Shown here: one piece after another, positions 12,926 through 64,000 of the stretch
Layout of the letters: each line of letters opens with the position of its first letter
How positions within the stretch are numbered: position 1 is the first letter of the stretch
DNA from: an uncultured Clostridia bacterium
GTDB lineage: Bacteria; Bacillota; Clostridia; Christensenellales; DTU072
Direction: 5' to 3'
Length of the DNA stretch: 64,000 bases
Assembly (NCBI GenBank): GCA_946621465.1
Contig: CAMOOO010000001.1
Span: forward strand, 384,386 to 448,385
The notes under the pieces: model-generated
The model's database searches: none
The model's input: the letters and a program-made list of their open reading frames with translations, nothing else
Told to the model about the DNA's origin: nothing
Program-made: the position numbers and the translations under genes

Positions 12926-13565
12926 AATAAATTTTAATTATGCTTGAACGCGCCACAAAAAGGAACAAATAAATTTTTCTTATAGAATAACATATCTTTC
13001 ACACGGAAAGATTAAAGTCTTATTAAGTTAAGTAAAATATATCTATATATGAATGATTATTATGTTCTTGTTTTTATGTTCAGTTCAAGTCTGTTACCGG
13101 AAACGTGTTAGCCAATCTGCATCATCTCCGGCGCATTCGATTAACATTTCGAATGGTAGCCAAAATAAAAAATGTTATTGACGCAATACCTCCAATGATC
13201 CTTATTTGGGGCACCGCCCCCGTTCCTCTATGGTTTCATATTACACAAAGCAAAAATAAATGTCAAGGTTTTTTTATAAAAATAATTGATTATAACAATT
13301 TTTTCCATTTTTTTTCATCAAAAATAGGTGTTTTTGTATATTTATCCATTTTCGTTGTATAATATTGCCCTTTTATTCATGTCGATAAATAAAAAATAAT
13401 GGAAAAATATGGCTTTAGAGCATGAAAAAATAGATCTATTACATTTAGATGCCAATAAAAACGTGGGGTGTGGATAAATAATGTCGCCGGCCAATTCAAA
13501 ATATATTATTTGTGTGTATCTGTGGCAATATCGGATGTTCAAGACGATAAAATGAAATAAAAAAA

Positions 13566-13589
13566 GTCAAAACCGTTTTTGGTTTTGAC
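13566..13589. terminator. Terminator hairpin downstream of tRNA-Ser(GCT), usable in both directions
   Basis: GTCAAAACC (13566..13574) pairs with GGTTTTGAC (13581..13589). On the minus strand a long T run follows. On the plus strand TCTTTT follows. Confidence 0.8.
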
Positions 13590-13594
13590 TCTTT

Positions 13595-13685
13595 TGGCGG
13601 AGAAATCGGGATTTGAACCCGAGCTACGTTTCACCGTACTACTCCCTTAGCAGGGGAGCCCCTTCAGCCACTTGGGTATTTCTCC
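13595..13685 (-). tRNA. tRNA-Ser (anticodon GCT), type II with a long variable arm and encoded CCA
   Basis: The reverse complement folds by hand: acceptor GGAGAAA/TTTCTCC, anticodon stem CTCCC/GGGAG with loop CTGCTAA, variable stem TACG/CGTA, T-arm TCGGG TTCAAAT CCCGA, then G-CCA. Confidence 0.93.
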
Positions 13686-56359: not shown

Positions 56360-57602
56360 AAAAGGTAGAGGTCTTATCATAACCGTAATTGTTTTATCCT
56401 GCATTATCTTTATATTCGGCGTACTGGCTTTAATCAACTATGTGAGCAGCAACGCAAACACCAAATATGCCGATAACGTTGAAAAAGTCAAGTATGAAAA
56501 TCAACTTACTCCGTACGTAGATCCTGAAACAGGCTGCTGGACCTTCACCTGCGATCGGGATTTCCGCATAATGCAACTAACCGATGTTCACGTCGGCGGC
56601 GGATTTATGTCCATTCAAAAAGATAGCTGGGCACTGAATGCCGTTGCTACGTTGATTGCCGATCAAAAACCGGATCTTGTTATCGTCACCGGTGATATCG
56701 GTTATCCCGTCCCCTTCCAATCCGGCACCTTTAATAATATGACCCCGGTAAAGGAATTCTCTACACTAATGGAAAGTTTGGGCGTATATTGGACATTTAC
56801 ATACGGTAACCACGATACCGAGGTTTATAGTTACTATACGAGAAAAGATATCAACGACTACTATCTTGACAAAATCAAAAGCGGCGAATTGAAATACTGT
56901 CTCTACGCCAGTCAGTTCGACGGAACGATCGACGGATATGACGGACTAGAAGCAGACGCCGGTTACGGTAATTCCATTATCAACGTTAAAAACAGTGCAG
57001 GTGTAATAACCCAGAGTCTGTTTATTCTTGATTCCCACTCCTACGAAAAGGGATTTTTCCGTGACTACGATCATATGCATCAATGTCAGATTGATTGGTA
57101 CAAAAACAGTTTAATTACGCTTAATGAAGCCAATAAAAAGGTCCTGAATGATGAATCCGATGAAATGACCATTAAGTCACTTGCTTTCTTTCATATTCCG
57201 ATGAGTGAATTCAAAGATGCATACAAAGAATGGCACAACAATGGGCAAAAGGACACCGAAAACGTCCAACTGATTTACGGCAAGATGGGCGAAGACATTG
57301 ACGGAGAATGGGTCTACTGCGGCGTTACGGAAGACAACCTCTTTGAGACCATGATGGAAATGAATAGCACCCAAGGCGTCTTCTGTGGACACGACCACTA
57401 CAATAACTTCTCGCTGTTCTATAACGGCGGCAAATACGACCATTCTATCAGACTGACGTATGGCATGAGCATTGACTATCTTGCATATATCGGAATCGCC
57501 AAAGAAACGGCTCAACGCGGCTGCACGATGATAACCGTATCTACCGATGGTTCATTCGACTGCTGCGGCTACAGATTAGCTGATAGCAAAATTATTGATT
57601 AA
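56334..57602 (+). CDS. Membrane-anchored calcineurin-like metallophosphoesterase
   Basis: N-terminal TM. Has QLTDVHVGGG, VTGDIGYP and YGNHD phosphoesterase motifs. GAGGT RBS sits upstream of the ATG at 56334. The tracked start 56322 is TTG. Confidence 0.75.
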   Translation: MKKEKKQRKKGRGLIITVIVLSCIIFIFGVLALINYVSSNANTKYADNVEKVKYENQLTPYVDPETGCWTFTCDRDFRIMQLTDVHVGGGFMSIQKDSWALNAVATLIADQKPDLVIVTGDIGYPVPFQSGTFNNMTPVKEFSTLMESLGVYWTFTYGNHDTEVYSYYTRKDINDYYLDKIKSGELKYCLYASQFDGTIDGYDGLEADAGYGNSIINVKNSAGVITQSLFILDSHSYEKGFFRDYDHMHQCQIDWYKNSLITLNEANKKVLNDESDEMTIKSLAFFHIPMSEFKDAYKEWHNNGQKDTENVQLIYGKMGEDIDGEWVYCGVTEDNLFETMMEMNSTQGVFCGHDHYNNFSLFYNGGKYDHSIRLTYGMSIDYLAYIGIAKETAQRGCTMITVSTDGSFDCCGYRLADSKIID

Positions 57603-57616
57603 CAACATCAAATCTG

Positions 57617-57645
57617 TTGCAAAATAAAATAGTTCGTTGTATAAT
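57617..57645 (+). promoter_or_regulatory. SigA-type promoter of tRNA-Ser(GGA)
   Basis: TTGCAA (57617..57622), 17 nt, TATAAT (57640..57645), 33 nt upstream of the tRNA 5' end. Confidence 0.7.
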
Positions 57646-57678
57646 AGGTTTCGCATTTAACAAAATTCGACCCGGAAT

Positions 57679-57769
57679 GGAGAGATGTCCGAGAGGTCGA
57701 AGGAGCACGACTGGAAATCGTGTGTACTGCGAACCAGTACCATGGGTTCGAATCCCATTCTCTCCGCCA
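57679..57769 (+). tRNA. tRNA-Ser (anticodon GGA), type II, encoded CCA
   Basis: Hand fold: acceptor GGAGAGA/TCTCTCC, anticodon stem CACGA/TCGTG with loop CTGGAAA, variable stem GTACTG/CAGTAC, T-arm ATGGG TTCGAAT CCCAT, then G-CCA. Confidence 0.93.
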
Positions 57770-57773
57770 AGCA

Positions 57774-57820
57774 AAACCTAAATCGAACCCATAAAGGTCG
57801 GTTTAGGTTTTTCTTTTATG
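57774..57820 (+). terminator. Imperfect terminator hairpin after tRNA-Ser(GGA)
   Basis: AAACCTAAATCGAACC pairs with GGTCGGTTTAGGTTT (one mismatch, one bulge), followed by TTTTTCTTTT. Confidence 0.6.
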
Positions 57821-58222
57821 CGTTTTTCGGGGATTTGATATATGTTTTCACCATTCAAAAGGTGTTCGTACAGGTGTGTTCGTATCGCTCTATCCCTATC
57901 ACGAAACGGACGTTTTATGTCGCGAAAAATAAATAGACGCATAAATGGTGTAAAATTCAAATATAGCCGACGGCGGATCATCGGGGCGATTCGCAAGCGG
58001 TTTAGCGAGAACGCCCCGATCCGCTCGGCTTTGAGTGTTTCATTTTACCGTGTCGATTTGGTTTTCGGCGGGTGCTTGACCGCGCCGAGAATCGGTGCGC
58101 TTGTATATGTCCAGCACCCGCCATAGTGCCATTTATAAATATTTTGCTAATATGATAAGGATTTGCTTGCTATTATTCGCAATCCAGAATATAATATAAT
58201 TATAAAATTTTGAGGTGATATT

Positions 58223-59290
58223 ATGTTAAGTTTTATGTCCGCAAAAGAAGCCGCTGAAAAATGGGATATCTCTCAAAGGAGAGTAGCAATTCTTTGTTCC
58301 GAAAAGCGTATTGACGGAGCGATGATGGTCGGCAATATGTGGATTATTCCGTCCACCGCCGAAAAGCCTATCGATAAAAGAACCGTGCGCTATGAAAAAA
58401 CAAAAACTATTACACTTAAACCGTTTGTAAAATGGGTAGGCGGCAAAAGTCAACTTGTCGATGAAATAGAAAAAATGTTACCGGCTGATGGTAAAAAGGT
58501 TTTAACAAAATATGCTGAACCCATGGTAGGCGGCGGCGCATTATTTTTCAATATCCTTTCAAAGTATGATTTTGAAGAACTTTATATAAGCGATATAAAC
58601 GCTGAACTTATAAACGCATATAAAGCCGTAAAAGACGATGTGAATAACTTGATTACTAAACTAAATGAAATGCAAATGACTTTTTTGCCTATGGATGAAA
58701 ACGGCAGAAAGTATTTCTATTATAGTGTGCGCGAAAAGTTTAATTCCACCGTTTTATCGGCGGAGACTGCTACCGAAAAAGCCGCACAATTTGTTTTCTT
58801 GAATAAAACTTGTTTCAATGGCTTGTATCGTGTAAATAGAAAAGGTCAATTTAACGTTCCTATGGGTGCATACAAAAACCCGACTATTTGTGATGATGAA
58901 AATTTACGCAACATTCACGAAGCGTTGCAAAACGTAACAATAGTTTGCGGTGATTATTCCCTTTCGAAATCGTTCATAGATAAAGACACTTTCGTATATC
59001 TTGATCCCCCTTATCGTCCTATTTCCGAAACATCTGCATTTACTTCATATAATTCTGAATCTTTTGATGATAACGAGCAGATACGACTTGCACAGTTTAT
59101 TGATGAAATCAACAAGTTGGGAGCAAAGATTGTTTTAAGCAATTCCGATCCGAAAAATGTAAACGAAGAAGATAATTTCTTTGATGATTTGTATAGAAAC
59201 TATAAAATCAATCGTGTCGAAGCAAACCGCGCAATCAATAGTAAAGGTGATAAGCGCGGAAAAATAAATGAATTGCTCATCTGCAACTGA
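58223..59290 (+). CDS. Dam-type N6-adenine DNA methyltransferase (GATC-type, DpnM/M.MboIA-like) with an N-terminal helix-turn-helix domain
   Basis: The N-terminus SAKEAAEKWDISQRRVAILCSEKRIDGAMMVGNMWIIP is a common Firmicutes HTH module. It is followed by KPFVKWVGGKSQL, FNGLYRVN and VYLDPPYRP (Dam family motifs). RBS GAGGTGA. Confidence 0.85.
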   Translation: MLSFMSAKEAAEKWDISQRRVAILCSEKRIDGAMMVGNMWIIPSTAEKPIDKRTVRYEKTKTITLKPFVKWVGGKSQLVDEIEKMLPADGKKVLTKYAEPMVGGGALFFNILSKYDFEELYISDINAELINAYKAVKDDVNNLITKLNEMQMTFLPMDENGRKYFYYSVREKFNSTVLSAETATEKAAQFVFLNKTCFNGLYRVNRKGQFNVPMGAYKNPTICDDENLRNIHEALQNVTIVCGDYSLSKSFIDKDTFVYLDPPYRPISETSAFTSYNSESFDDNEQIRLAQFIDEINKLGAKIVLSNSDPKNVNEEDNFFDDLYRNYKINRVEANRAINSKGDKRGKINELLICN

Positions 59291-59299
59291 GGTGAAACT

Positions 59300-59542
59300 A
59301 TGGAAAAAGACTATATTAATGTTTTAATCGATATTATTAAACTTATACAGGACCCAAATATAGAGAAAAACGTAAAAGAAAAAGCAATAAAGTCACTTTT
59401 AAAACAAAGTGTGGACATTGCCCCCAACTATGGATATCAAACGAAGCAAGACTTAAAGCAAATAATTGATTTGCCTATGAGTGAAAAAGAATTATTCGAC
59501 ACTATTTATTCTTATTTTGCCACACATAATGTTAAACTTTAA
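59300..59542 (+). CDS. 80-aa hypothetical protein inside the R-M operon
   Basis: GAGGTGA RBS sits 5 nt upstream of the ATG. It lies 9 nt after the methylase stop and 11 nt before the endonuclease start. It is Lys/Ile/Asp-rich and probably all-helical. No motif recognised. Confidence 0.6.
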   Translation: MEKDYINVLIDIIKLIQDPNIEKNVKEKAIKSLLKQSVDIAPNYGYQTKQDLKQIIDLPMSEKELFDTIYSYFATHNVKL

Positions 59543-59553
59543 AGGAGAAACAT

Positions 59554-60414
59554 ATGAAAAGAAATTTTAAAGAATGGCTTGGACAGTTTAGAAACAGTAT
59601 AGCAGATTACAAATACTATGTTGATTTCAACAAAGTTTATGGTAATATTGAAAATATCAAAATTGAATTGAATATCTTGAATTCTTTAATAGGCTCGCAA
59701 AAAATAGAAGATGATTTTGATACAATTTATGAAAAGTATCCTGAAATTTTGAAATGCATTCCTATTCTTATTGCAAAGCGAGAATATGAAATATATGCGA
59801 TTGACTCGGAAGGAGAATTTACATATAATTTTGTAAAACCTAATTATTCCGTCGAACAATATAAAGTTTTTATGAGAAAAACAGGTTTGTTTGACTTATT
59901 ATCAAATCACATTATAAAAGATTTGGTTGACTATGTTACAGGCGTTGAAGTAGGTCTTGATAGCAACGGTCGAAAGAATCGTGGCGGTCATTTGATGGAA
60001 AATCTTGTTGAATCTTTCATTGTAAAAGCGGGTTTTGTCAAAGATGAAAACTACTTCAAGGAAATGTATTTGAAAGATATTGAAAAGAGATGGGATATTG
60101 ACTTGTCGGCTCTTTCAAATATGGGTGATGTGGCTAAACGTTTTGACTTTGTTATTAAAACCGAGCAAACGATTTATGCAATTGAAACAAACTTCTACGC
60201 AAGCAACGGTTCCAAACTTAATGAAACGGCAAGAAGTTATAAAATGATAACCGAAGAAGCAAAGAATATAGACAGATTTGCTTTCGTGTGGTTTACTGAC
60301 GGCGTTGGTTGGTATAATGCTAAACATAATCTAAAAGAAACTTTCGATGTGCTTGATAATATCTATAACATTCAAGAGTTAGAAAGCGGTATTTTGGCTA
60401 AAGTGATTAAGTAA
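59554..60414 (+). CDS. Type II restriction endonuclease, DpnII/MboI family (GATC)
   Basis: 286 aa. The N-terminus FKEWLGQFRNSIADYKYYVDFNKVYGNIENIKIELNILNSLIGS closely follows my recollection of the R.DpnII (DpnB) N-terminal pattern. AGGAGA RBS. Confidence 0.8.
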   Translation: MKRNFKEWLGQFRNSIADYKYYVDFNKVYGNIENIKIELNILNSLIGSQKIEDDFDTIYEKYPEILKCIPILIAKREYEIYAIDSEGEFTYNFVKPNYSVEQYKVFMRKTGLFDLLSNHIIKDLVDYVTGVEVGLDSNGRKNRGGHLMENLVESFIVKAGFVKDENYFKEMYLKDIEKRWDIDLSALSNMGDVAKRFDFVIKTEQTIYAIETNFYASNGSKLNETARSYKMITEEAKNIDRFAFVWFTDGVGWYNAKHNLKETFDVLDNIYNIQELESGILAKVIK

Positions 60415-60416
60415 AT

Positions 60417-61157
60417 ATGGCAAAAAAGATTCCTTTACAACCTGAAGATTTTGAACTCGAAACGAATACCGTGTGGGCATTCCCCGATCGCGGCAAATGG
60501 GCTACTCACGATGCTAAGTATCGTGGTAATTGGTCGCCGTATATACCGAGGAACATAATATTGCGTTATTCTGTTGATGGCGATACGGTTTTAGATCAAT
60601 TTGTCGGCGGTGGAACTACAGCAGTAGAAGCAAAACTTACGAATAGAAATTTCATCGGCGTGGATATAAATCCAAATGCCATTGAAATTACTAAAAGTAA
60701 ATTGGTTTTTGAGTGCGAATTTAACCCAACGATTGACATTGAGCAAGGTGACGCTCGCAATCTTTCATCAATAGACGACAACTCGATAGATCTTATTTGC
60801 ACACACCCGCCCTATGCCGATATCATTCATTACAGCGAAGATATTGATGGCGATATGTCACTTTTGCAGATGAAAGATTTTTTATTTGAAATCGGCAAAG
60901 TTGCTGAAGAATGCTATCGAGTGCTGAAAAAGGATAAGTTTTGCGCCATACTTATGGGAGATATGCGAAAAAAAGGTATGGTTCAGCCACTCGCATTTGA
61001 AACAATGCGTATATTCGAAATGGCAGGCTTCAAAACAAAAGAAATAATAATCAAAGAGCAACACAACTGCAAAGCCACGGGATATTGGAAAACAAACAGC
61101 ATAAAGTTTAACTTCCTACTCCTCGCCCATGAGTATTTGTTTGTGTTTAAGAAATAG
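60417..61157 (+). CDS. Second SAM-dependent DNA methyltransferase (N6-A/N4-C type)
   Basis: Motif I is VLDQFVGGGTTAVEA, then IGVDINP, then motif IV CTHPPYADII. It starts 2 nt after the endonuclease stop. Confidence 0.7.
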   Translation: MAKKIPLQPEDFELETNTVWAFPDRGKWATHDAKYRGNWSPYIPRNIILRYSVDGDTVLDQFVGGGTTAVEAKLTNRNFIGVDINPNAIEITKSKLVFECEFNPTIDIEQGDARNLSSIDDNSIDLICTHPPYADIIHYSEDIDGDMSLLQMKDFLFEIGKVAEECYRVLKKDKFCAILMGDMRKKGMVQPLAFETMRIFEMAGFKTKEIIIKEQHNCKATGYWKTNSIKFNFLLLAHEYLFVFKK

Positions 61158-61176
61158 ATTAAAGATAACACTTATT

Positions 61177-62976
61177 ATGATAAAGATCACAAGTATGCAA
61201 ATTAACCGATTTAGATCAATTTTATCCCTTGATATTCAAATCGCACAGGATAATAACTTAATCGCTGTTTGCGGGAAAAACAATGTAGGAAAAACCAATA
61301 CACTTAAAGCAATTAAGTTGTTTTTCTATCCTGAAGAATTTAACACAAATGATATTCCTACTATTAAACATGCAACAGGCGGTCAATCTGTTTATCCAAA
61401 AATCACCATTACATTTTTAGATTCAATAACAAGTACTTATTATACAATTACAAGGATTTTCAAGAATTATGATCAGAGCGAATTAATTGGAATTTCCTAT
61501 ACGCTTTCAAAAAGGAAAAAAATAAACAAAATACAATTGTCAACTGATGATATTAATTCGTTTCTAAGTAAGATCTATTTCATTTTTATAGATTCCGTAA
61601 ATGTTTTCTTGCCCGACTTGATAGATAAGATATCGGATGATATGATAAACGTACAGTATGATAAAGCAAGGTTTTCGGAATCAAAGAAAAATTTAAAAGA
61701 TTCCTATGATAACTATGTAGATGGTTTACAAAAAATATTAGATAATTTTGCAAATGATATATCTGCTACATTTTCAGAGTTTAATAGTGATTGGAAAATT
61801 AAGTTTAAAGTTCCTAAAAATTCTGATACAGTAAAAGATCTTATTTCAAATGATGTTTCGATTCTTTTAGACGATAATGGCAGTTTTAAAGTGCAATCAA
61901 AAGGAGCTGGACTGCAAAGATTAACAGCAATTTTATTGTACTTTGAAATGATTAAAAGGCTCAGTAATCGTAAACAAATTATTCTTTGTGTTGATGAACC
62001 AGATGTTTTCTTGCACGAAGGGTTACAAAGAAAATTAAAAAAACTATTTGATGACAGAAGCGACAAAATGCAGATTTTTTATACTACGCATTCAAAAGTT
62101 TTTATCAACCAATACAACATGAATAATGTACTACTGCTTGATGCCAAAATTTATGAACAACATTCCGCGCGAAAAAACAAAAAGATATCCGTTACTGAGA
62201 CATTTAAAGTAGATTTATCAGATGAAGAAGGTTATAAAAAAATATGCAAACATTTAGGAATAGAGCAAACATCATATGACCTTTTAGATACGAAAAACTT
62301 ATTAGTCGAGGGTGGTTGCGACAAAAAATATATTGATGAATTATGCAAGTATTATGGGTTTATCTCCCCAAACATAATTGCAATGAACGGCGCAGATAAT
62401 GCCTTAAAGTATTTAGATTTCTATAATTCATTTTATCAGGAATCAACCTGTAAATATAAACCTCAAATAAAAGTTGTTTTGGACAATGACAGTAAAGGTC
62501 GAGAGATTGCCGCAAAAGTATCATCAAAGTATTATGACTATATAATTGCAAAAGTCCATGTAATACAAAACTTTGAAGGAACTGCCGATACATCATTGAC
62601 AAATAACAACACAAACAACGAGATTGAAGACTTAATATACCCTGAAATCATTTGTCATTTGATAAATATGATTCTTAAAATGAAGAAAATGACCACAATT
62701 CGTGTGCCCAAAATTTGTTCATCTATAAAAAAGAAATCGTTTAGTTCTAAAGGGATTTTGGAGTTATGCGAACATGAGAAAAATGAAGCAAATCCAAACG
62801 ATGGGCAAAAAATATCTTTTGTATCATCAGGAAGCTCAACCAACAGACTTAAGGATGCTATGGCGGGACTATTCACTATTGAAGCAAATCAAAGCATATT
62901 AGCTTTAATAAAGTCTTGCGAAATGCAATATCCTAATGTAAAAAAAGAAATAGAAAACATAATATCGTTTATTTAA
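61177..62976 (+). CDS. OLD-family / fused PARIS-like nuclease: N-terminal ABC-type ATPase plus C-terminal Toprim
   Basis: Walker A CGKNNVGKTN, ABC signature-like SKGAGLQRL, Walker B ILCVDEPDVFLH, H-loop YTTHS. The Toprim glutamate is in LLVEGGCDKKYI and the DxD is in VVLDNDSKG. Start 61177 (MIKITSMQINRFRSI) is preferred over the tracked 61129. Confidence 0.75.
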   Translation: MIKITSMQINRFRSILSLDIQIAQDNNLIAVCGKNNVGKTNTLKAIKLFFYPEEFNTNDIPTIKHATGGQSVYPKITITFLDSITSTYYTITRIFKNYDQSELIGISYTLSKRKKINKIQLSTDDINSFLSKIYFIFIDSVNVFLPDLIDKISDDMINVQYDKARFSESKKNLKDSYDNYVDGLQKILDNFANDISATFSEFNSDWKIKFKVPKNSDTVKDLISNDVSILLDDNGSFKVQSKGAGLQRLTAILLYFEMIKRLSNRKQIILCVDEPDVFLHEGLQRKLKKLFDDRSDKMQIFYTTHSKVFINQYNMNNVLLLDAKIYEQHSARKNKKISVTETFKVDLSDEEGYKKICKHLGIEQTSYDLLDTKNLLVEGGCDKKYIDELCKYYGFISPNIIAMNGADNALKYLDFYNSFYQESTCKYKPQIKVVLDNDSKGREIAAKVSSKYYDYIIAKVHVIQNFEGTADTSLTNNNTNNEIEDLIYPEIICHLINMILKMKKMTTIRVPKICSSIKKKSFSSKGILELCEHEKNEANPNDGQKISFVSSGSSTNRLKDAMAGLFTIEANQSILALIKSCEMQYPNVKKEIENIISFI

Positions 62977-63010
62977 TATTCGATTTACGTTACTATCGCT
63001 CCGCCACAAA

Positions 63011-63046
63011 CAGCCAAAACCAAAAACGGTTTTGTCTGTTTTATTT
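63011..63046. terminator. Terminator hairpin, shared by the OLD-like gene and the convergent DUF218 gene
   Basis: CAGCCAAAACC (63011..63021) pairs with GGTTTTGTCTG (63028..63038), with one C-T mismatch, then TTTTATTT. Confidence 0.75.
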
Positions 63047-63064
63047 GTACCAAACAAAATGGTT

Positions 63065-63892
63065 TTAAAAAGCTATTTTGCCGCCAAGCGTCAAGAAAAA
63101 TGAACAAATGGATTCCCACATAACGTTTTCGCAAAACAACAGCGGTTCCGACGGCGCAGGAATATTTATTATAGACTTATACCCCTGCTTTCTTGCAATG
63201 CCGGTTGCTCGGAACATATGGAGATTACTGGTAACCACCCCTAGGGGTTTCTCTTTATCGACATAATTTGATACGTTCTCAAAATTTCCGACAGTCGTTT
63301 TTGCTTCCGTCTCTGCAATTAGTTCTCCCAAAGAGGTATCGAAGCCCTGTTCCAGCAGATATCTACTCATGTATCCGGCTTCGGAATAATACGGGTCTTC
63401 GCTATTGCCACCCGTAACTATGAAAGGCACATCCGGATGATCGGTTTTATATTCCATTGCCGTGTCAAGTCGATTGATCAGGTCCTTCGGCAACTTATCA
63501 CTGTCAATAGCAAGTCCCAACACGCATACGTTTTCTACCGGGTCATCGTCTTTAATTGTACCGGTTATAATTATTGCCGCGTTCAATACTATAAAAATAG
63601 CGCAAATGGCGAGAGAAAGTATCCTCAACACAAATCCAGTTACTTTGACTGCTTTGTTTTTCGCCCATGTAAAAATCCCAAAGCGAAGATCAAATGCCGG
63701 AAGCGATAATAAACACATTATGCCGAATTCGCCTAAGAAACGGGTTGCAGCGGACCACTTTTTTGCATCCAACACCGTAACAAGACGATATATCATTACG
63801 GCGGCAAAATAAATAATAAGAATGGCACATATCAATAATAAGATGGTGCCGAAGATTTTACGCGATTTACTGATTATTTTCTTTTTATCCAT
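63065..63892 (-). CDS. Membrane-anchored DUF218 (YdcF/SanA-like) protein
   Basis: N-terminal TM helices are followed by FIVTGGNSEDPYYSEAGYMSRYLLEQG and VTSNLHMFRA (DUF218 pattern). The start MDKKK at 63892 is preceded by AAGGAGAG. The tracked start 63955 is an extension. Confidence 0.65.
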   Translation of the reverse strand: MDKKKIISKSRKIFGTILLLICAILIIYFAAVMIYRLVTVLDAKKWSAATRFLGEFGIMCLLSLPAFDLRFGIFTWAKNKAVKVTGFVLRILSLAICAIFIVLNAAIIITGTIKDDDPVENVCVLGLAIDSDKLPKDLINRLDTAMEYKTDHPDVPFIVTGGNSEDPYYSEAGYMSRYLLEQGFDTSLGELIAETEAKTTVGNFENVSNYVDKEKPLGVVTSNLHMFRATGIARKQGYKSIINIPAPSEPLLFCENVMWESICSFFLTLGGKIAF

Positions 63893-64000
63893 CCATTCTC
63901 TCCTTCTTTGGAATCTTATACCGGGGAAATAAGTGTGCTTGTTACATGCGTCCAAAAAAATTTACTTGTCCTTTTTCATTATATATTATCATAACATGCT

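What the first reader, a model, noticed from the sequence alone, without database searches (positions are those of the whole stretch)
57759..63046. AT-rich 5.2-kb islet inserted at the 3' end of tRNA-Ser(GGA), with a displaced native tRNA terminator
The tRNA 3' end TCTCTCCGCCA (57759..57769) recurs as TCGCTCCGCCA at 62996..63006, a 10/11 match.

The right-hand copy is followed by CAAACAG-CCAAAACCAAAAACGGTTTTGTC-TGTTTT. On the transcribed strand this shares the 20-mer CAAAACCAAAAACGGTTTTG with the terminator of the other tRNA-Ser gene (13566..13589, minus strand). It also shares the same CTCCGCCA-N6/7-hairpin layout. The sequence at 62996..63046 therefore looks like the original 3' end plus terminator of tRNA-Ser(GGA), pushed 5.2 kb away by an insertion.

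Everything in between is visibly more AT-rich and encodes only defence-type genes. No integrase is present. This would be a decayed or integrase-less defence islet, or one mobilised in trans.
Basis: partly seen in the sequence, partly recalled or inferred. Interest (0 to 1): 0.7.

Follow-up and report, generated by a model that had tools for sequence, protein, structure and literature searches.

The report
Recombinase-less defence islet at tRNA-Ser
A 5.2-kb piece of foreign DNA carrying a GATC-type restriction-modification system and an OLD nuclease sits at the end of a serine tRNA gene; it is the stripped-down remnant of a mobile element whose complete relatives carry a large serine recombinase, which makes it an ordinary kind of defence island, though an unusually well documented one.

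Summary
tRNA-Ser(GGA) lies at 57679-57769. Window 57770-63006 is an inserted element, and 63007-63046 is a host terminator displaced by it.

Relatives provide the proof. Complete elements in other Clostridia (L092-L094, L108-L124) sit directly after a tRNA-Ser CCA. They begin with the same left arm, AGnnAAACCTAAATCGAAC... (a hairpin). They end with the same right arm, TTCGATTTACGTTACTAnCGCTCCGCCA. After the right arm, every host has a different terminator hairpin.

These complete elements carry a large serine recombinase and a rolling-circle Rep next to the tRNA. The window has lost that roughly 3.2-kb module at a GAAA microhomology (about 57924-57929). It keeps both arms, a conserved structured non-coding module, a Dam-HTH/80-aa/DpnII/second-methylase cassette and an OLD-family nuclease.

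The right-hand TCGCTCCGCCA therefore belongs to the element (attP half-site). It is not a decayed copy of the tRNA end.

Caveats: no empty-site allele was found, and the first 365 bp of the islet are not AT-rich.

This is a new member of a known kind: a decayed, possibly cis-mobilisable, integrative element. Two side results are more novel. The family uses a serine recombinase to target tRNA-Ser and tmRNA 3' ends. The OLD gene is repeatedly co-operonic with two-methylase R-M systems.

The parts
57679..57769 (+). tRNA-Ser(GGA). This is the host attB left half and it is intact.
   Evidence: Identified by ARAGORN and Rfam tRNA, 56.8 bits. It is 91/91 identical to the tRNA of the nearest relative, L002, whose contig ends exactly at this CCA. 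A promoter-like TTGCAA-17-TATAAT lies at 57617-57645.
57762..57769 (+). CTCCGCCA core shared by attL and attR. The crossover is predicted at C57764-C57765.
   Evidence: The identical 8-mer ends the right arm at 62999-63006. The crossover position is inferred from the centre of dyad symmetry of the reconstructed attP. It is also consistent with the T/G difference at 57761/62998, which stays on the host side and the element side respectively.
57770..57927 (+). Left arm of the element (attP right half, P'). It includes an element-borne terminator hairpin for the tRNA (57770-57814) and the inverted-repeat half TAAATCGAA (57779-57787).
   Evidence: It is 78-91% identical to the DNA directly after tRNA-Ser(CGA) in L092-94, and to the left arms in L096 and L105. 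The motif occurs once in the window, with 0 expected. Seventeen metagenome loci carry it, ten of them directly after a complete tRNA-Ser. The hairpin folds at -18.9 kcal/mol, z = -5.0.
57924..57929 (.). Deletion junction. In complete relatives about 3.2 kb lies here, carrying the large serine recombinase, the rolling-circle Rep and small ORFs.
   Evidence: Window 57692-57927 matches L092 512-766, and window 57943-58134 matches L092 4019-4210. The intervening L092 767-4018 encodes the 500-aa LSR and the 225-aa Rep. The junction lies at a GAAA shared by both L092 flanks. L105 has a different junction, at TACA.
57943..58134 (+). Conserved structured non-coding module with two long hairpins. Function is unknown; it may be a replication or transfer origin.
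   Evidence: It is 96% identical to L092, 93% to L105 and about 80% to L108/L113/L115/L118. Folded as DNA it gives -53 kcal/mol, z = -6.6. Three pairs in the apical stem of hairpin 2 show compensatory changes. There is no Rfam match.
58167..58195 (+). Promoter of the R-M cassette (TTGCTA-17-TATAAT). An operator-like inverted repeat, TATTC-N8-GAATA (58174-58191), lies in its spacer.
   Evidence: Found by the promoter scan. The cassette homology in L101-L104 starts here, at 58166. The inverted repeat is conserved in L092, L105, L101 and L065 (read). Its role as an operator is an inference.
58223..59290 (+). Dam-class N6-adenine DNA methyltransferase with an N-terminal HTH (residues 1-60).
   Evidence: Matches PF02086 at 5.5e-65 and TIGR00571 dam at 1.6e-91. 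HTH_17 matches at 2.6e-4, below Pfam's cut-off. The DPPY motif is at residue 261. Thousands of homologues are 88-97% identical.
59300..59542 (+). 80-aa ORF of unknown function, conserved inside the cassette.
   Evidence: No family match was found. An 80-aa gene sits at the same position in L092-L105. It is absent from L125-L132.
59554..60414 (+). DpnII-family type II restriction endonuclease. GATC specificity is inferred from the family.
   Evidence: Matches PF04556 at 3.7e-106 and PADLOC REase_II at 1.5e-100.
60417..61157 (+). Second DNA methyltransferase (N4/N6 class), at the DpnA / M.MboIC position.
   Evidence: Matches PF01555 at 1.3e-26 and PADLOC MTase_II at 5.6e-115. An HPPY motif is at residue 130.
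61177..62976 (+). OLD-family ABC-ATPase/Toprim nuclease (599 aa), occupying the variable cargo slot.
   Evidence: Matches AAA_15 at 4.5e-20 and AAA_21, PADLOC Old at 2.9e-27 with GajA and ATPase-Toprim also hit, and PDB 6p74 and GajA chains at about 5e-6. Walker A GKNNVGKT, Toprim LLVEG and DNDSKG are present. A 599-aa protein identical over its full length is on record in the collection (P0162). Homology with L105 and L101 stops at 61161-61167, just before this gene.
62979..63006 (+). Right arm of the element (attP left half, P): TTCGATTTACGTTACTATCGCTCCGCCA.
   Evidence: It occurs once in the window, with 0 expected even at 3 mismatches. The same 28-mer (one variable base; first base differs in L092) ends the elements in L092-95/97, L105, L106, L107, L118 and L125. 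Identity stops at CCGCCA.
63007..63046 (+). Displaced host terminator (B'). The hairpin is at 63008-63041 and is followed by a T tract. It is bidirectional, lying between the OLD gene and the convergent DUF218 gene.
   Evidence: It folds at -14.2 kcal/mol, z = -5.3, and the terminator scan finds it on both strands. It shares a 20-mer, loop included, with the terminator of the resident tRNA-Ser(GCT). In other hosts a different terminator hairpin occupies this position.
13560..13685 (-). Comparator: tRNA-Ser(GCT) with its terminator directly attached. This is an unoccupied paralogous site.
   Evidence: A relative's tRNA-Ser(GCT) (L086) has an unrelated terminator, so the 20-mer identity arose within this lineage.

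Best explanation
Window 57770-63006 is a decayed integrative element that inserted by site-specific recombination at the 3' end of tRNA-Ser(GGA).

**How complete family members are built.** They carry a large serine recombinase (LSR) and a rolling-circle-type Rep next to the tRNA. Their attP is the right arm joined to the left arm: TTCGATTTA-CGTTACTAnCGCTCCGCCA|AGnnAAACC-TAAATCGAA. It has a perfect 9-bp terminal inverted repeat. The centre of its symmetry falls on the CC of CTCCGCCA, the 8-mer shared with the tRNA acceptor end.

**What integration does.**
- It leaves the tRNA intact.
- It places an element-borne terminator directly behind the tRNA.
- It pushes the tRNA's own terminator to the far end of the element, behind the element's tRNA-like right arm.

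**What has happened in the window.** An illegitimate deletion at a GAAA microhomology removed the recombinase/Rep module. The element can no longer move by itself. Both att arms remain intact, so a related element's recombinase might still excise it (a cis-mobilisable element).

**What it does now.** It serves the host as a defence islet, with two parts:
- A DpnII/MboI-type R-M operon: a Dam-class methylase with an HTH that probably autoregulates the promoter, the DpnII nuclease, and a second methylase.
- A co-transcribed OLD-family ATPase-Toprim nuclease.

**Shown:** the boundaries, the arms, the missing module, the gene identities and the foreign composition.
**Inferred:** the crossover position, trans-mobilisability, GATC specificity and the defence activity.
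For: 1. **Left boundary.** The sequence starting at the base after CCA (57770) is homologous to the sequence directly after tRNA-Ser(CGA) or tRNA-Ser(GGA) in 10 of 17 metagenome loci and in L092-94. It also follows a tmRNA 3'-end repeat in L065.
2. **Right boundary.** The 28-nt right arm is conserved in elements from at least six other contexts. Identity ends at CCGCCA, after which each host has its own terminator hairpin.
3. **Recombinase in relatives.**
   - L092-94, L108, L113, L115, L117, L118, L120 and L124 have a 500-aa protein with Resolvase, Recombinase and Zn_ribbon_recom domains, plus a PF23343 Rep, between the left arm and the cargo.
   - The window aligns to L092 on both sides of that module but lacks it.
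   - No remnant of it survives in the window.
4. **Horizontal transfer.**
   - The Dam-HTH protein has thousands of 88-97% identical homologues, and the cassette is 81-92% identical in DNA to L092, L101 and L105.
   - The host flank proteins, by contrast, have nothing above 71-78% identity anywhere.
5. **Composition.** GC is 32.7% against 42.3 +/- 1.2%.
6. **Host origin of the terminator.** It shares a 20-mer, loop included, with the resident tRNA-Ser(GCT) terminator. That terminator is not conserved in a relative.
7. **Intact tRNA.** It is identical to that of the nearest relative.
8. **The T/G mismatch fits the model.** It is what B+P' (attL) and P+B' (attR) predict if the crossover lies 3' of it.
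9. **Intact genes.** All five genes have the same lengths as their homologues.
Against: - **No empty site found.** A search for the predicted junction in the metagenome collection gave 0 hits. The species is rare: the identical DUF218 protein is on only a handful of contigs, and the one shown is occupied.
- **Right-flank synteny is not conserved.** Relatives with a 58-66% identical DUF218 have tRNA-Ser(TGA), not GGA, convergent to it. The 71% relative has no tRNA there at all.
- **No excised form found.** No attP junction was found in IMG/VR or in the fetched loci.
- **The rest of the genome is unseen.** Whether a cognate recombinase exists elsewhere in it cannot be checked from the window.
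- **The crossover position is untested.** It rests on symmetry alone.
- **Defence activity is untested.**
Confidence: 0.85

Rival explanations
1. The islet arrived already without a recombinase. On this view it is a cis-mobilisable miniature element moved in trans by a full-length relative, and did not decay in place after an autonomous integration.
For: - Both att arms are intact and match the family consensus.
- Recombinase-less versions recur: L105 has the same overall layout and 92% identity, and L125-132 and L065 are also recombinase-less.
- The IME literature describes such CIMEs and their accretion with other elements (PMC5704250).
Against: - The deletion end points differ between the window (GAAA, about 57924-57929) and L105 (TACA). 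This points to independent deletions rather than spread of one miniature form.
- No helper recombinase is present in the 64-kb window.
- No excised form was found.
Confidence: 0.25
2. attL and attR do not come from one simple insertion. The right arm plus terminator plus DUF218 originally lay at a different tRNA-Ser locus (for example tRNA-Ser(TGA)). They were joined to the tRNA-Ser(GGA) locus by recombination between two related elements, which amounts to a chromosomal rearrangement.
For: - DUF218 orthologues in L083 and L088-90 lie convergent to tRNA-Ser(TGA), and the flank there begins CCGCCA-CAACAG, resembling the window's CCGCCA-CAAACAG.
- The family uses several tRNA-Ser isoacceptors and builds tandem arrays, which provide substrates for such recombination.
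- MPE-tRNA-Ser(GGA) synteny is conserved on the left side only.
Against: - Those relatives are distant (58-66% protein identity). The closest one, L082 at 71%, has no tRNA next to DUF218.
- The terminator is most similar to the resident tRNA-Ser(GCT) terminator, not to any TGA one.
- A simple insertion explains all features without an extra event.
Confidence: 0.12
3. The islet is a classical tRNA island that was integrated by a tyrosine (P4-like) integrase, and that integrase has since decayed.
For: - Integration at a tRNA 3' end with a direct repeat is the hallmark of tyrosine-integrase islands (PMC5704250).
- A 450-bp non-coding stretch lies where an integrase gene would sit.
Against: - All complete relatives sharing both arms carry a large serine recombinase there, and none carries a tyrosine integrase.
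- 57770-58222 has no recombinase similarity in any frame.
- That stretch aligns to the non-coding parts of the LSR elements.
Confidence: 0.03
4. There was no insertion. The region is a native AT-rich stretch, and the 11-mer and the shared terminator are chance or convergent features.
For: - The 11-mer alone is weak evidence.
- No empty site was found.
Against: - The 20-mer has 0 of 100 chance hits.
- Both arms are conserved in unrelated hosts, with the break points exactly at the CCA ends.
- The cassette is 81-92% identical to DNA in other genomes, while the flanks diverge beyond 70-78% protein identity.
Confidence: 0.01

Closest known systems
CIMEs (cis-mobilisable elements) and decayed integrative and mobilisable elements of Firmicutes (reviewed in PMC5704250)
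   Same: [quoted passage not shown]
- It sits at the 3' end of a conserved gene.
- Relatives occur in tandem accretions with other elements (L096, L105, L106, L107).
   Different: - According to that review, serine-recombinase IMEs usually integrate inside protein-coding genes and disrupt them. tRNA 3' ends are described there as the territory of tyrosine integrases.
- Here the family recombinase is a large serine recombinase and the tRNA stays intact.
- Mobilisation in trans is not shown here.
Tycheposons of Prochlorococcus (bioRxiv 10.1101/2020.12.28.424599)
   Same: - They are cargo-carrying elements specific for particular tRNA genes, including tRNA-Ser.
- They carry replication genes and form arrays.
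- They leave partial tRNA copies between elements.
- A minority carry a large serine recombinase.
   Different: - The host group is different (gut and rumen Clostridia).
- The replication module is different (a small PF23343 Rep rather than primase/helicase).
- There is no sequence relationship.
- The window copy has no recombinase at all.
SCC / pseudo-SCC elements of staphylococci (from my own knowledge, not tested here)
   Same: - Large-serine-recombinase (Ccr) elements insert at the 3' end of a conserved gene (rlmH) without inactivating it.
- They form composite arrays.
- They leave recombinase-less 'pseudo' cassettes bounded by the att repeats.
   Different: - The target is a protein-coding gene, not a tRNA.
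- The recombinases and cargo are unrelated.
- The comparison is by analogy only.
DpnII (S. pneumoniae), MboI and LlaDCHI type II R-M systems with two methyltransferases (from my own knowledge)
   Same: - A Dam-class methylase, a DpnII-family nuclease and a second N6/N4-class methylase lie in one operon.
- The gene order M-R-M matches that of MboI.
   Different: - The first methylase carries an extra N-terminal HTH.
- An 80-aa ORF of unknown function lies between M1 and R.
- An OLD-family gene is appended to the operon.
- GATC specificity has not been tested.
Class 1 OLD nucleases (P2 Old, Thermus scotoductus OLD; review PMC10568477)
   Same: - It is a single polypeptide with an ABC ATPase and a Toprim domain.
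- It has no UvrD-like (GajB) or retron partner.
- Its size is about 600 aa.
   Different: - Class 1 genes are described as solitary and not next to other defence genes.
- This one lies 20 nt behind an R-M operon. Its homologues at 75% and 54% identity do the same in two other genomic settings.

Membership tests
tRNA-associated integrative element / genomic island | Insert starts at the 3' end of a tRNA gene, which stays intact | tested here: met
   Element homology starts at 57770, the base after CCA. The tRNA is 91/91 identical to that of the nearest relative.
tRNA-associated integrative element / genomic island | Repeat of the tRNA 3' end at the far boundary (attL/attR) | tested here: met
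   CTCCGCCA is shared exactly, and the 11-mer matches 10/11. The right arm is conserved across the family and ends at CCGCCA.
tRNA-associated integrative element / genomic island | Composition and phylogenetic signal of foreign DNA | tested here: met
   GC is 32.7% against 42.3 +/- 1.2%. Cassette proteins have 88-97% identical homologues in many genomes, whereas the flank proteins reach at most 71-78%.
tRNA-associated integrative element / genomic island | Empty-site allele in related genomes | tested here: inconclusive
   The predicted junction gave 0 hits in metagenome contigs. No conspecific genome was available other than occupied copies.
tRNA-associated integrative element / genomic island | Own integrase gene | tested here: not met
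   The window has none. Complete relatives do have one.
CIME (cis-mobilisable element) | Integration and transfer genes are lost but attL and attR are retained | tested here: met
   The recombinase/Rep module is deleted at about 57924-57929. Both arms match the family consensus with no mismatch in the motifs that were searched.
CIME (cis-mobilisable element) | Excision or transfer when a cognate recombinase is supplied in trans | not testable with these tools
   This needs an excision assay. No attP junction was found in IMG/VR or in the fetched loci.
Large-serine-recombinase integrating elements | Recombinase with Resolvase, Recombinase and Zn_ribbon_recom domains next to an att site | tested here: not met
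   It is absent from the window. It is present in L092 (E = 1.6e-29, 8.2e-16 and 9.9e-11 for the three domains) and in L004. So the window copy is a derivative of the family, not a functional member.
Large-serine-recombinase integrating elements | attP of about 50 bp with dyad symmetry around a 2-bp crossover shared with attB | tested here: inconclusive
   The reconstructed attP has a perfect 9-bp inverted repeat (TTCGATTTA / TAAATCGAA) 28 nt apart, centred on the CC of the shared CTCCGCCA. The crossover itself has not been demonstrated.
DpnII/MboI-type type II R-M with two methyltransferases | DpnII-family nuclease plus a Dam-class methylase plus a second N6/N4 methylase in one operon | tested here: met
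   PF04556 at 3.7e-106, PF02086 at 5.5e-65 and TIGR00571 at 1.6e-91, and PF01555 at 1.3e-26. The genes are 2-12 nt apart.
DpnII/MboI-type type II R-M with two methyltransferases | Recognition and methylation of GATC | not testable with these tools
   Specificity is inferred from the family. GATC O/E in the window is 0.74, similar to other palindromes, so it is uninformative.
OLD family nucleases, class 1 | N-terminal ABC ATPase and C-terminal Toprim in one protein | tested here: met
   AAA_15 and AAA_21 match. PADLOC Old matches at 2.9e-27, and ATPase-Toprim also matches. PDB OLD and GajA chains match. Walker A, LLVEG and DNDSKG motifs are present.
OLD family nucleases, class 1 | Solitary gene, not adjacent to other defence genes (as defined in PMC10568477) | tested here: not met
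   It lies 20 nt downstream of the R-M operon. The same linkage is seen in L125-132 and in Veillonella L133-138.
Gabija (class 2 OLD) | GajB (UvrD-like helicase) partner next to GajA | tested here: not met
   There is no helicase gene in the islet. The right arm follows the OLD stop codon within a few bases.

The most novel reading that the evidence does not exclude
Two readings go beyond 'one more tRNA island'.

**(a) An undescribed element family.** The islet may belong to an undescribed family of elements in gut and rumen Clostridia that combine a large serine recombinase with a rolling-circle Rep.
- They specifically target the acceptor/CCA end of tRNA-Ser isoacceptors, and also tmRNA.
- They bring their own tRNA terminator.
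- They stack into tandem arrays of defence islets.
- They repeatedly lose the recombinase module by independent deletions, which fixes the cargo in the host.

**(b) A new OLD context.** This OLD clade may be a functional partner of two-methylase (Dam plus DpnA-like) R-M operons. The M-R-M-OLD order is kept even where the nuclease is replaced by a non-homologous protein. That would be a new OLD context class, for example a second-line nuclease that acts when restriction is evaded or when methylation fails.
Probability: 0.35. Interest if true: 0.6.

Novelty: new member of a known kind. Interest (0 to 1): 0.4.

Why it matters
- **Annotation.** The result sets precise boundaries (57770-63006) and an origin for a defence islet that automatic pipelines would report only as scattered R-M genes. 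It also shows that the tRNA now uses a foreign terminator.
- **Fixation of defence cargo.** The case gives a clean example, with defined junctions, of how defence cargo becomes fixed in a host. The recombinase module is deleted while both att arms survive. This has happened independently in at least two hosts.
- **A possibly new target class for serine recombinases.** The family appears to use a large serine recombinase on tRNA-Ser and tmRNA 3' ends. That target class is usually attributed to tyrosine integrases. It also offers natural attP/attB pairs with a predictable crossover.
- **A testable hypothesis for OLD nucleases.** The recurring M-R-M-OLD operon bears on the open question of what solitary ('class 1') OLD nucleases do.

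Tried and rejected
- **Empty-site search.** The pattern tRNA 3' end + CAAACAG was scanned in metagenome contigs and gave 0 hits.
- **Exact-protein look-ups of the left flank gene.** Two possible start codons were tried and neither is on record. The DUF218 look-up returned only an occupied 3.3-kb contig.
- **Species representatives (GTDB).**
  - Only L002 and L004 keep MPE-tRNA-Ser(GGA).
  - L002 stops at the CCA.
  - L004 is occupied by a different LSR element, whose right end I could not locate; its second CTCCGCCA lies inside the recombinase ORF.
- **DUF218 homologues.** Right-flank synteny is not conserved, so no ancestral state could be read.
- **Recombinase remnants.** tblastn with the L092 and L004 recombinases and Rep, plus Pfam and NCBIfam on all small ORFs of 57770-58222, found nothing.
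- **Rfam.** 57000-64000 at E <= 1 gave only the tRNA, so the structured module is not a known RNA family.
- **Excised or circular attP junction.** Not found in IMG/VR or in the 138 fetched loci.
- **Annotated phages and plasmids.** Only distant similarity to individual R-M genes was found.
- **GATC avoidance as a sign of long residence.** O/E is 0.74, no different from other 4-bp palindromes, so it is uninformative.
- **Possible second islet at 12926-13594.** This AT-rich stretch lies next to tRNA-Ser(GCT). It is a 670-bp intergenic region, and the native terminator is still attached to the tRNA.

Full report
**Observation**

ARAGORN finds two tRNA genes in the window: tRNA-Ser(GCT) at 13595-13685 (-) and tRNA-Ser(GGA) at 57679-57769 (+). 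The tRNA end TCTCTCCGCCA (57759-57769) recurs as TCGCTCCGCCA at 62996-63006.

On its own the 11-mer is weak evidence. The window has 5 hits with at most 1 mismatch against 0.63 expected, and two of them are the tRNA-Ser genes themselves.

The 20-mer is strong evidence. CAAAACCAAAAACGGTTTTG occurs exactly twice, once after the right-hand copy and once in the terminator of tRNA-Ser(GCT). None of 100 shuffles reached this, even with 3 mismatches allowed. Both hairpins begin 3 nt after CCA and fold as terminators.

The interval 58135-63006 is 32.7% GC. Every other window of the same length averages 42.3 +/- 1.2%, with a minimum of 39.9%. GC3 of the five genes is 0.27-0.39, against 0.42-0.50 in the flanking genes. 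The first 365 bp after the tRNA are 46% GC, so the AT-rich part does not begin at the tRNA.

**Gene content**

The genes all lie on the + strand, 2-20 nt apart:

| Coordinates | Product | Key evidence |
|---|---|---|
| 58223-59290 | Dam-class methyltransferase with a 60-residue N-terminal HTH | PF02086, 5.5e-65 |
| 59300-59542 | 80-aa ORF | no family match |
| 59554-60414 | DpnII-family restriction endonuclease | PF04556, 3.7e-106 |
| 60417-61157 | N4/N6 methyltransferase | PF01555, 1.3e-26 |
| 61177-62976 | OLD-family ABC-ATPase/Toprim protein | PADLOC Old, 2.9e-27; Walker A, LLVEG and DNDSKG motifs |

The flanks are host genes. A cation-efflux protein and a metallophosphoesterase (MPE) lie on the left. 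A convergent DUF218/YdcF gene (63065-63892) lies on the right. No recombinase is present.

**Search for an empty site**

- The organism is an uncultured Clostridia bacterium.
- The closest species representatives have MPE at only 78% (L002) and 62% (L004) identity.
- L002 carries an identical tRNA, and its contig ends exactly at the CCA.
- In L004 the tRNA is followed by a 513-aa large serine recombinase on the opposite strand.
- DUF218 has nothing closer than 71%. Its relatives are flanked by tRNA-Ser(TGA) or by no tRNA.
- A scan of the metagenome collection for the predicted empty junction found nothing.

The empty site therefore remains unobserved.

**Decisive evidence from relatives of the cargo**

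The Dam-HTH protein has thousands of homologues at 88-97% identity. This contrasts sharply with the host genes. Their contexts fall into three groups.

*Complete elements (L092-L094), in order:*
- tRNA-Ser(CGA)
- a left arm, equal to window 57770-57927 (78% over the match 57692-57927, which includes most of the tRNA)
- a 500-aa large serine recombinase with Resolvase, Recombinase and Zn_ribbon_recom domains
- a PF23343 rolling-circle-type Rep
- small ORFs
- a non-coding module 96% identical to window 57943-58134
- a 189-aa ORF
- the R-M cassette (81% to 58148-61154)
- other cargo
- a right arm (89% to 62974-63010)
- an unrelated terminator

*Recombinase-less islet (L105).* It resembles the window's, at 92% identity over 57943-61167. 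It has the same arms, different cargo after the second methylase and a different terminator after the right arm. Its left arm abuts the right end of an upstream Hachiman islet.

*Cassette only (L101-L104).* These contain only the cassette, from its promoter (58166) to 61161.

The OLD gene therefore occupies a variable cargo slot that begins at about 61168.

**The arms**

Anchoring all copies on CCGCCA gives these results:

- The left arm reads CCGCCA|AGnnAAACCTAAATCGAACCCAtAAAG...GGTTTAGGTTTTT. This is a hairpin plus T tract, and so an element-borne terminator.
- The right arm reads TTCGATTTACGTTACTAnCGCTCCGCCA|.
- Conservation starts and stops exactly at the CCA ends.
- After the right arm, the window, L092, L105, L118 and L125 each have a different hairpin. 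The four folded (window, L092, L105, L125) give z = -3.9 to -5.3.
- Each arm occurs once in the window, with none expected by chance.
- A metagenome scan with the left arm returned 17 loci. Ten follow a complete tRNA-Ser directly (nine CGA, one GGA). One more follows a tRNA-Ser-like 3' end that ARAGORN did not call. The rest follow other elements' right ends. Most are followed by the recombinase (about 75% identical to L092's) and Rep.
- In IMG/VR the right arm is followed by another element's left arm, showing tandem arrays.
- In L065 the same left arm and cassette follow a 21-nt repeat of a tmRNA 3' end.

**Mechanism**

Joining the right and left arms reconstructs attP: TTCGATTTA-N28-TAAATCGAA. 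It has a perfect 9-bp inverted repeat, and its centre falls between C63001 and C63002, inside the CTCCGCCA shared with the tRNA. This is the architecture expected for a large-serine-recombinase site with a 2-bp crossover (general knowledge of the family; see also PMC5704250).

With the crossover there, attL = host + P' and attR = P + host. This explains three things:
- The tRNA keeps its own T at 57761, while the right copy keeps the element's G at 62998.
- The right copy is conserved among elements at other tRNA-Ser genes.
- The tRNA is unchanged.

The crossover position is an inference.

**Decay**

Window 57692-57927 and 57943-58134 align to L092 512-766 and 4019-4210. The intervening 3.2 kb, which carries the recombinase, Rep and small ORFs, is missing. 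The junction lies at a GAAA present on both sides in L092. L105 lost the same module at a different junction (TACA), so the losses were independent. L065 and L125-L132 show further recombinase-less layouts.

All five window genes have the same lengths as their homologues, so the cargo is intact. [quoted passage not shown]

**The displaced terminator**

Three facts show that 63007-63046 is resident DNA rather than part of the element:
- The hairpin differs from those behind the right arm in other hosts.
- It shares a 20-mer, loop included, with the resident tRNA-Ser(GCT) terminator.
- The tRNA-Ser(GCT) terminator is unrelated in a relative, L086.

I could not show whether it was originally attached to this tRNA-Ser(GGA) or to another tRNA-Ser gene. 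That rival, a rearrangement between elements, stays at about 0.12.

**Side results**

1. *OLD linkage.*
   - The closest OLD homologues (75%) lie in L125-L132, again directly behind the same cassette. There they sit in a recombinase-less islet at tRNA-Ser(GGA) of a different host, with the same right arm and another terminator.
   - A 54% homologue in Veillonella follows a D12 methylase, a non-homologous 434-aa DUF6996/6997/7226 protein and a 64%-identical N4/N6 methylase, downstream of guaA.
   - The review PMC10568477 defines class 1 OLD genes as solitary. This M-R-M-OLD layout may therefore be an undescribed context.
2. *Structured module.* 57943-58134 is more conserved than the genes and strongly structured (z = -6.6). 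It shows compensatory changes in one stem. Its function is unknown.

**Comparison and verdict**

The islet is a new member of a known kind: a decayed site-specific integrative element carrying defence cargo at a tRNA gene.

- It is not a functional member of the serine-recombinase elements, because it has no recombinase.
- It is not a tyrosine-integrase island.
- My literature searches found no description of a serine-recombinase family specific for tRNA-Ser 3' ends in Clostridia. These searches were limited.

Interest is moderate, at 0.4.

Noticed in passing
window 60417-62976; L125 7301-11806; L133 3090-7806: The OLD-family gene is co-operonic (10-20 nt gaps) with a two-methylase R-M operon in three settings. 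One is Veillonella, where the DpnII nuclease is replaced by a non-homologous DUF6996/6997/7226 protein and OLD is only 54% identical. Class 1 OLD genes are described as solitary.
   Followed up: partly
window 57943-58134: A non-coding module with two long hairpins. It is 96% identical to L092 and about 80% to four other elements, which is more conserved than the neighbouring genes. The DNA fold gives z = -6.6, and one stem shows compensatory changes. There is no Rfam match. It may be an origin for the elements' Rep, or an oriT.
   Followed up: partly
L065 18603-19480: A tmRNA gene with its terminator is followed about 125 bp later by a 21-nt repeat of the tmRNA 3' end (CAACTCCCCGCATCTCCACCA). 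A variant of the same left arm and the same R-M cassette come next, with no recombinase. The family, or a sister family, therefore also uses tmRNA.
   Followed up: partly
L004 11373-12983: In the 62% relative, tRNA-Ser(GGA) is followed by a related hairpin arm and a 513-aa large serine recombinase (42% identical to L092's). Its ORF runs through the arm into the tRNA 3' end. The right end of this element was not located.
   Followed up: partly
L002 3663-3753: The contig of the closest relative (MPE 78%) ends exactly at the CCA of an identical tRNA-Ser(GGA). This is what would be expected if the population is polymorphic downstream of the tRNA.
   Followed up: no
L088 10831-11260; L083 5191-6654: DUF218 orthologues lie convergent to tRNA-Ser(TGA), with a variable spacer (180 bp, or 1.4 kb containing an HD-domain gene). 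L088 also has a duplicated copy of the tRNA's first ~32 nt about 160 bp upstream. This suggests that this tRNA-Ser is another insertion hot spot.
   Followed up: no
L105 843-5704; L096 790-837; L106 1753-2049; L107 (reverse strand) around 10126: These are tandem accretions. The left arm of the R-M element abuts a different right arm (...AGTTCAAAyTGACATTC...CGCCGCCA) that ends a Hachiman-carrying islet (L105). The R-M family's right arm is followed directly by the left arms of other recombinase elements (L106, L107).
   Followed up: partly
window 58174-58191: An inverted repeat, TATTC-N8-GAATA, lies in the spacer of the R-M promoter. It is conserved in L092, L105, L101 and L065. It is a candidate operator for the HTH fused to the Dam methylase.
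   Followed up: no
window 59300-59542: An 80-aa ORF with no family match is conserved between the first methylase and the DpnII nuclease in most cassettes (L092-L105). It is missing from L125-L132.
   Followed up: no
window 1-57769: GGCC (O/E 0.28) and CTAG (0.39) are strongly under-represented relative to a second-order expectation. GATC (0.74) is not unusual.
   Followed up: no
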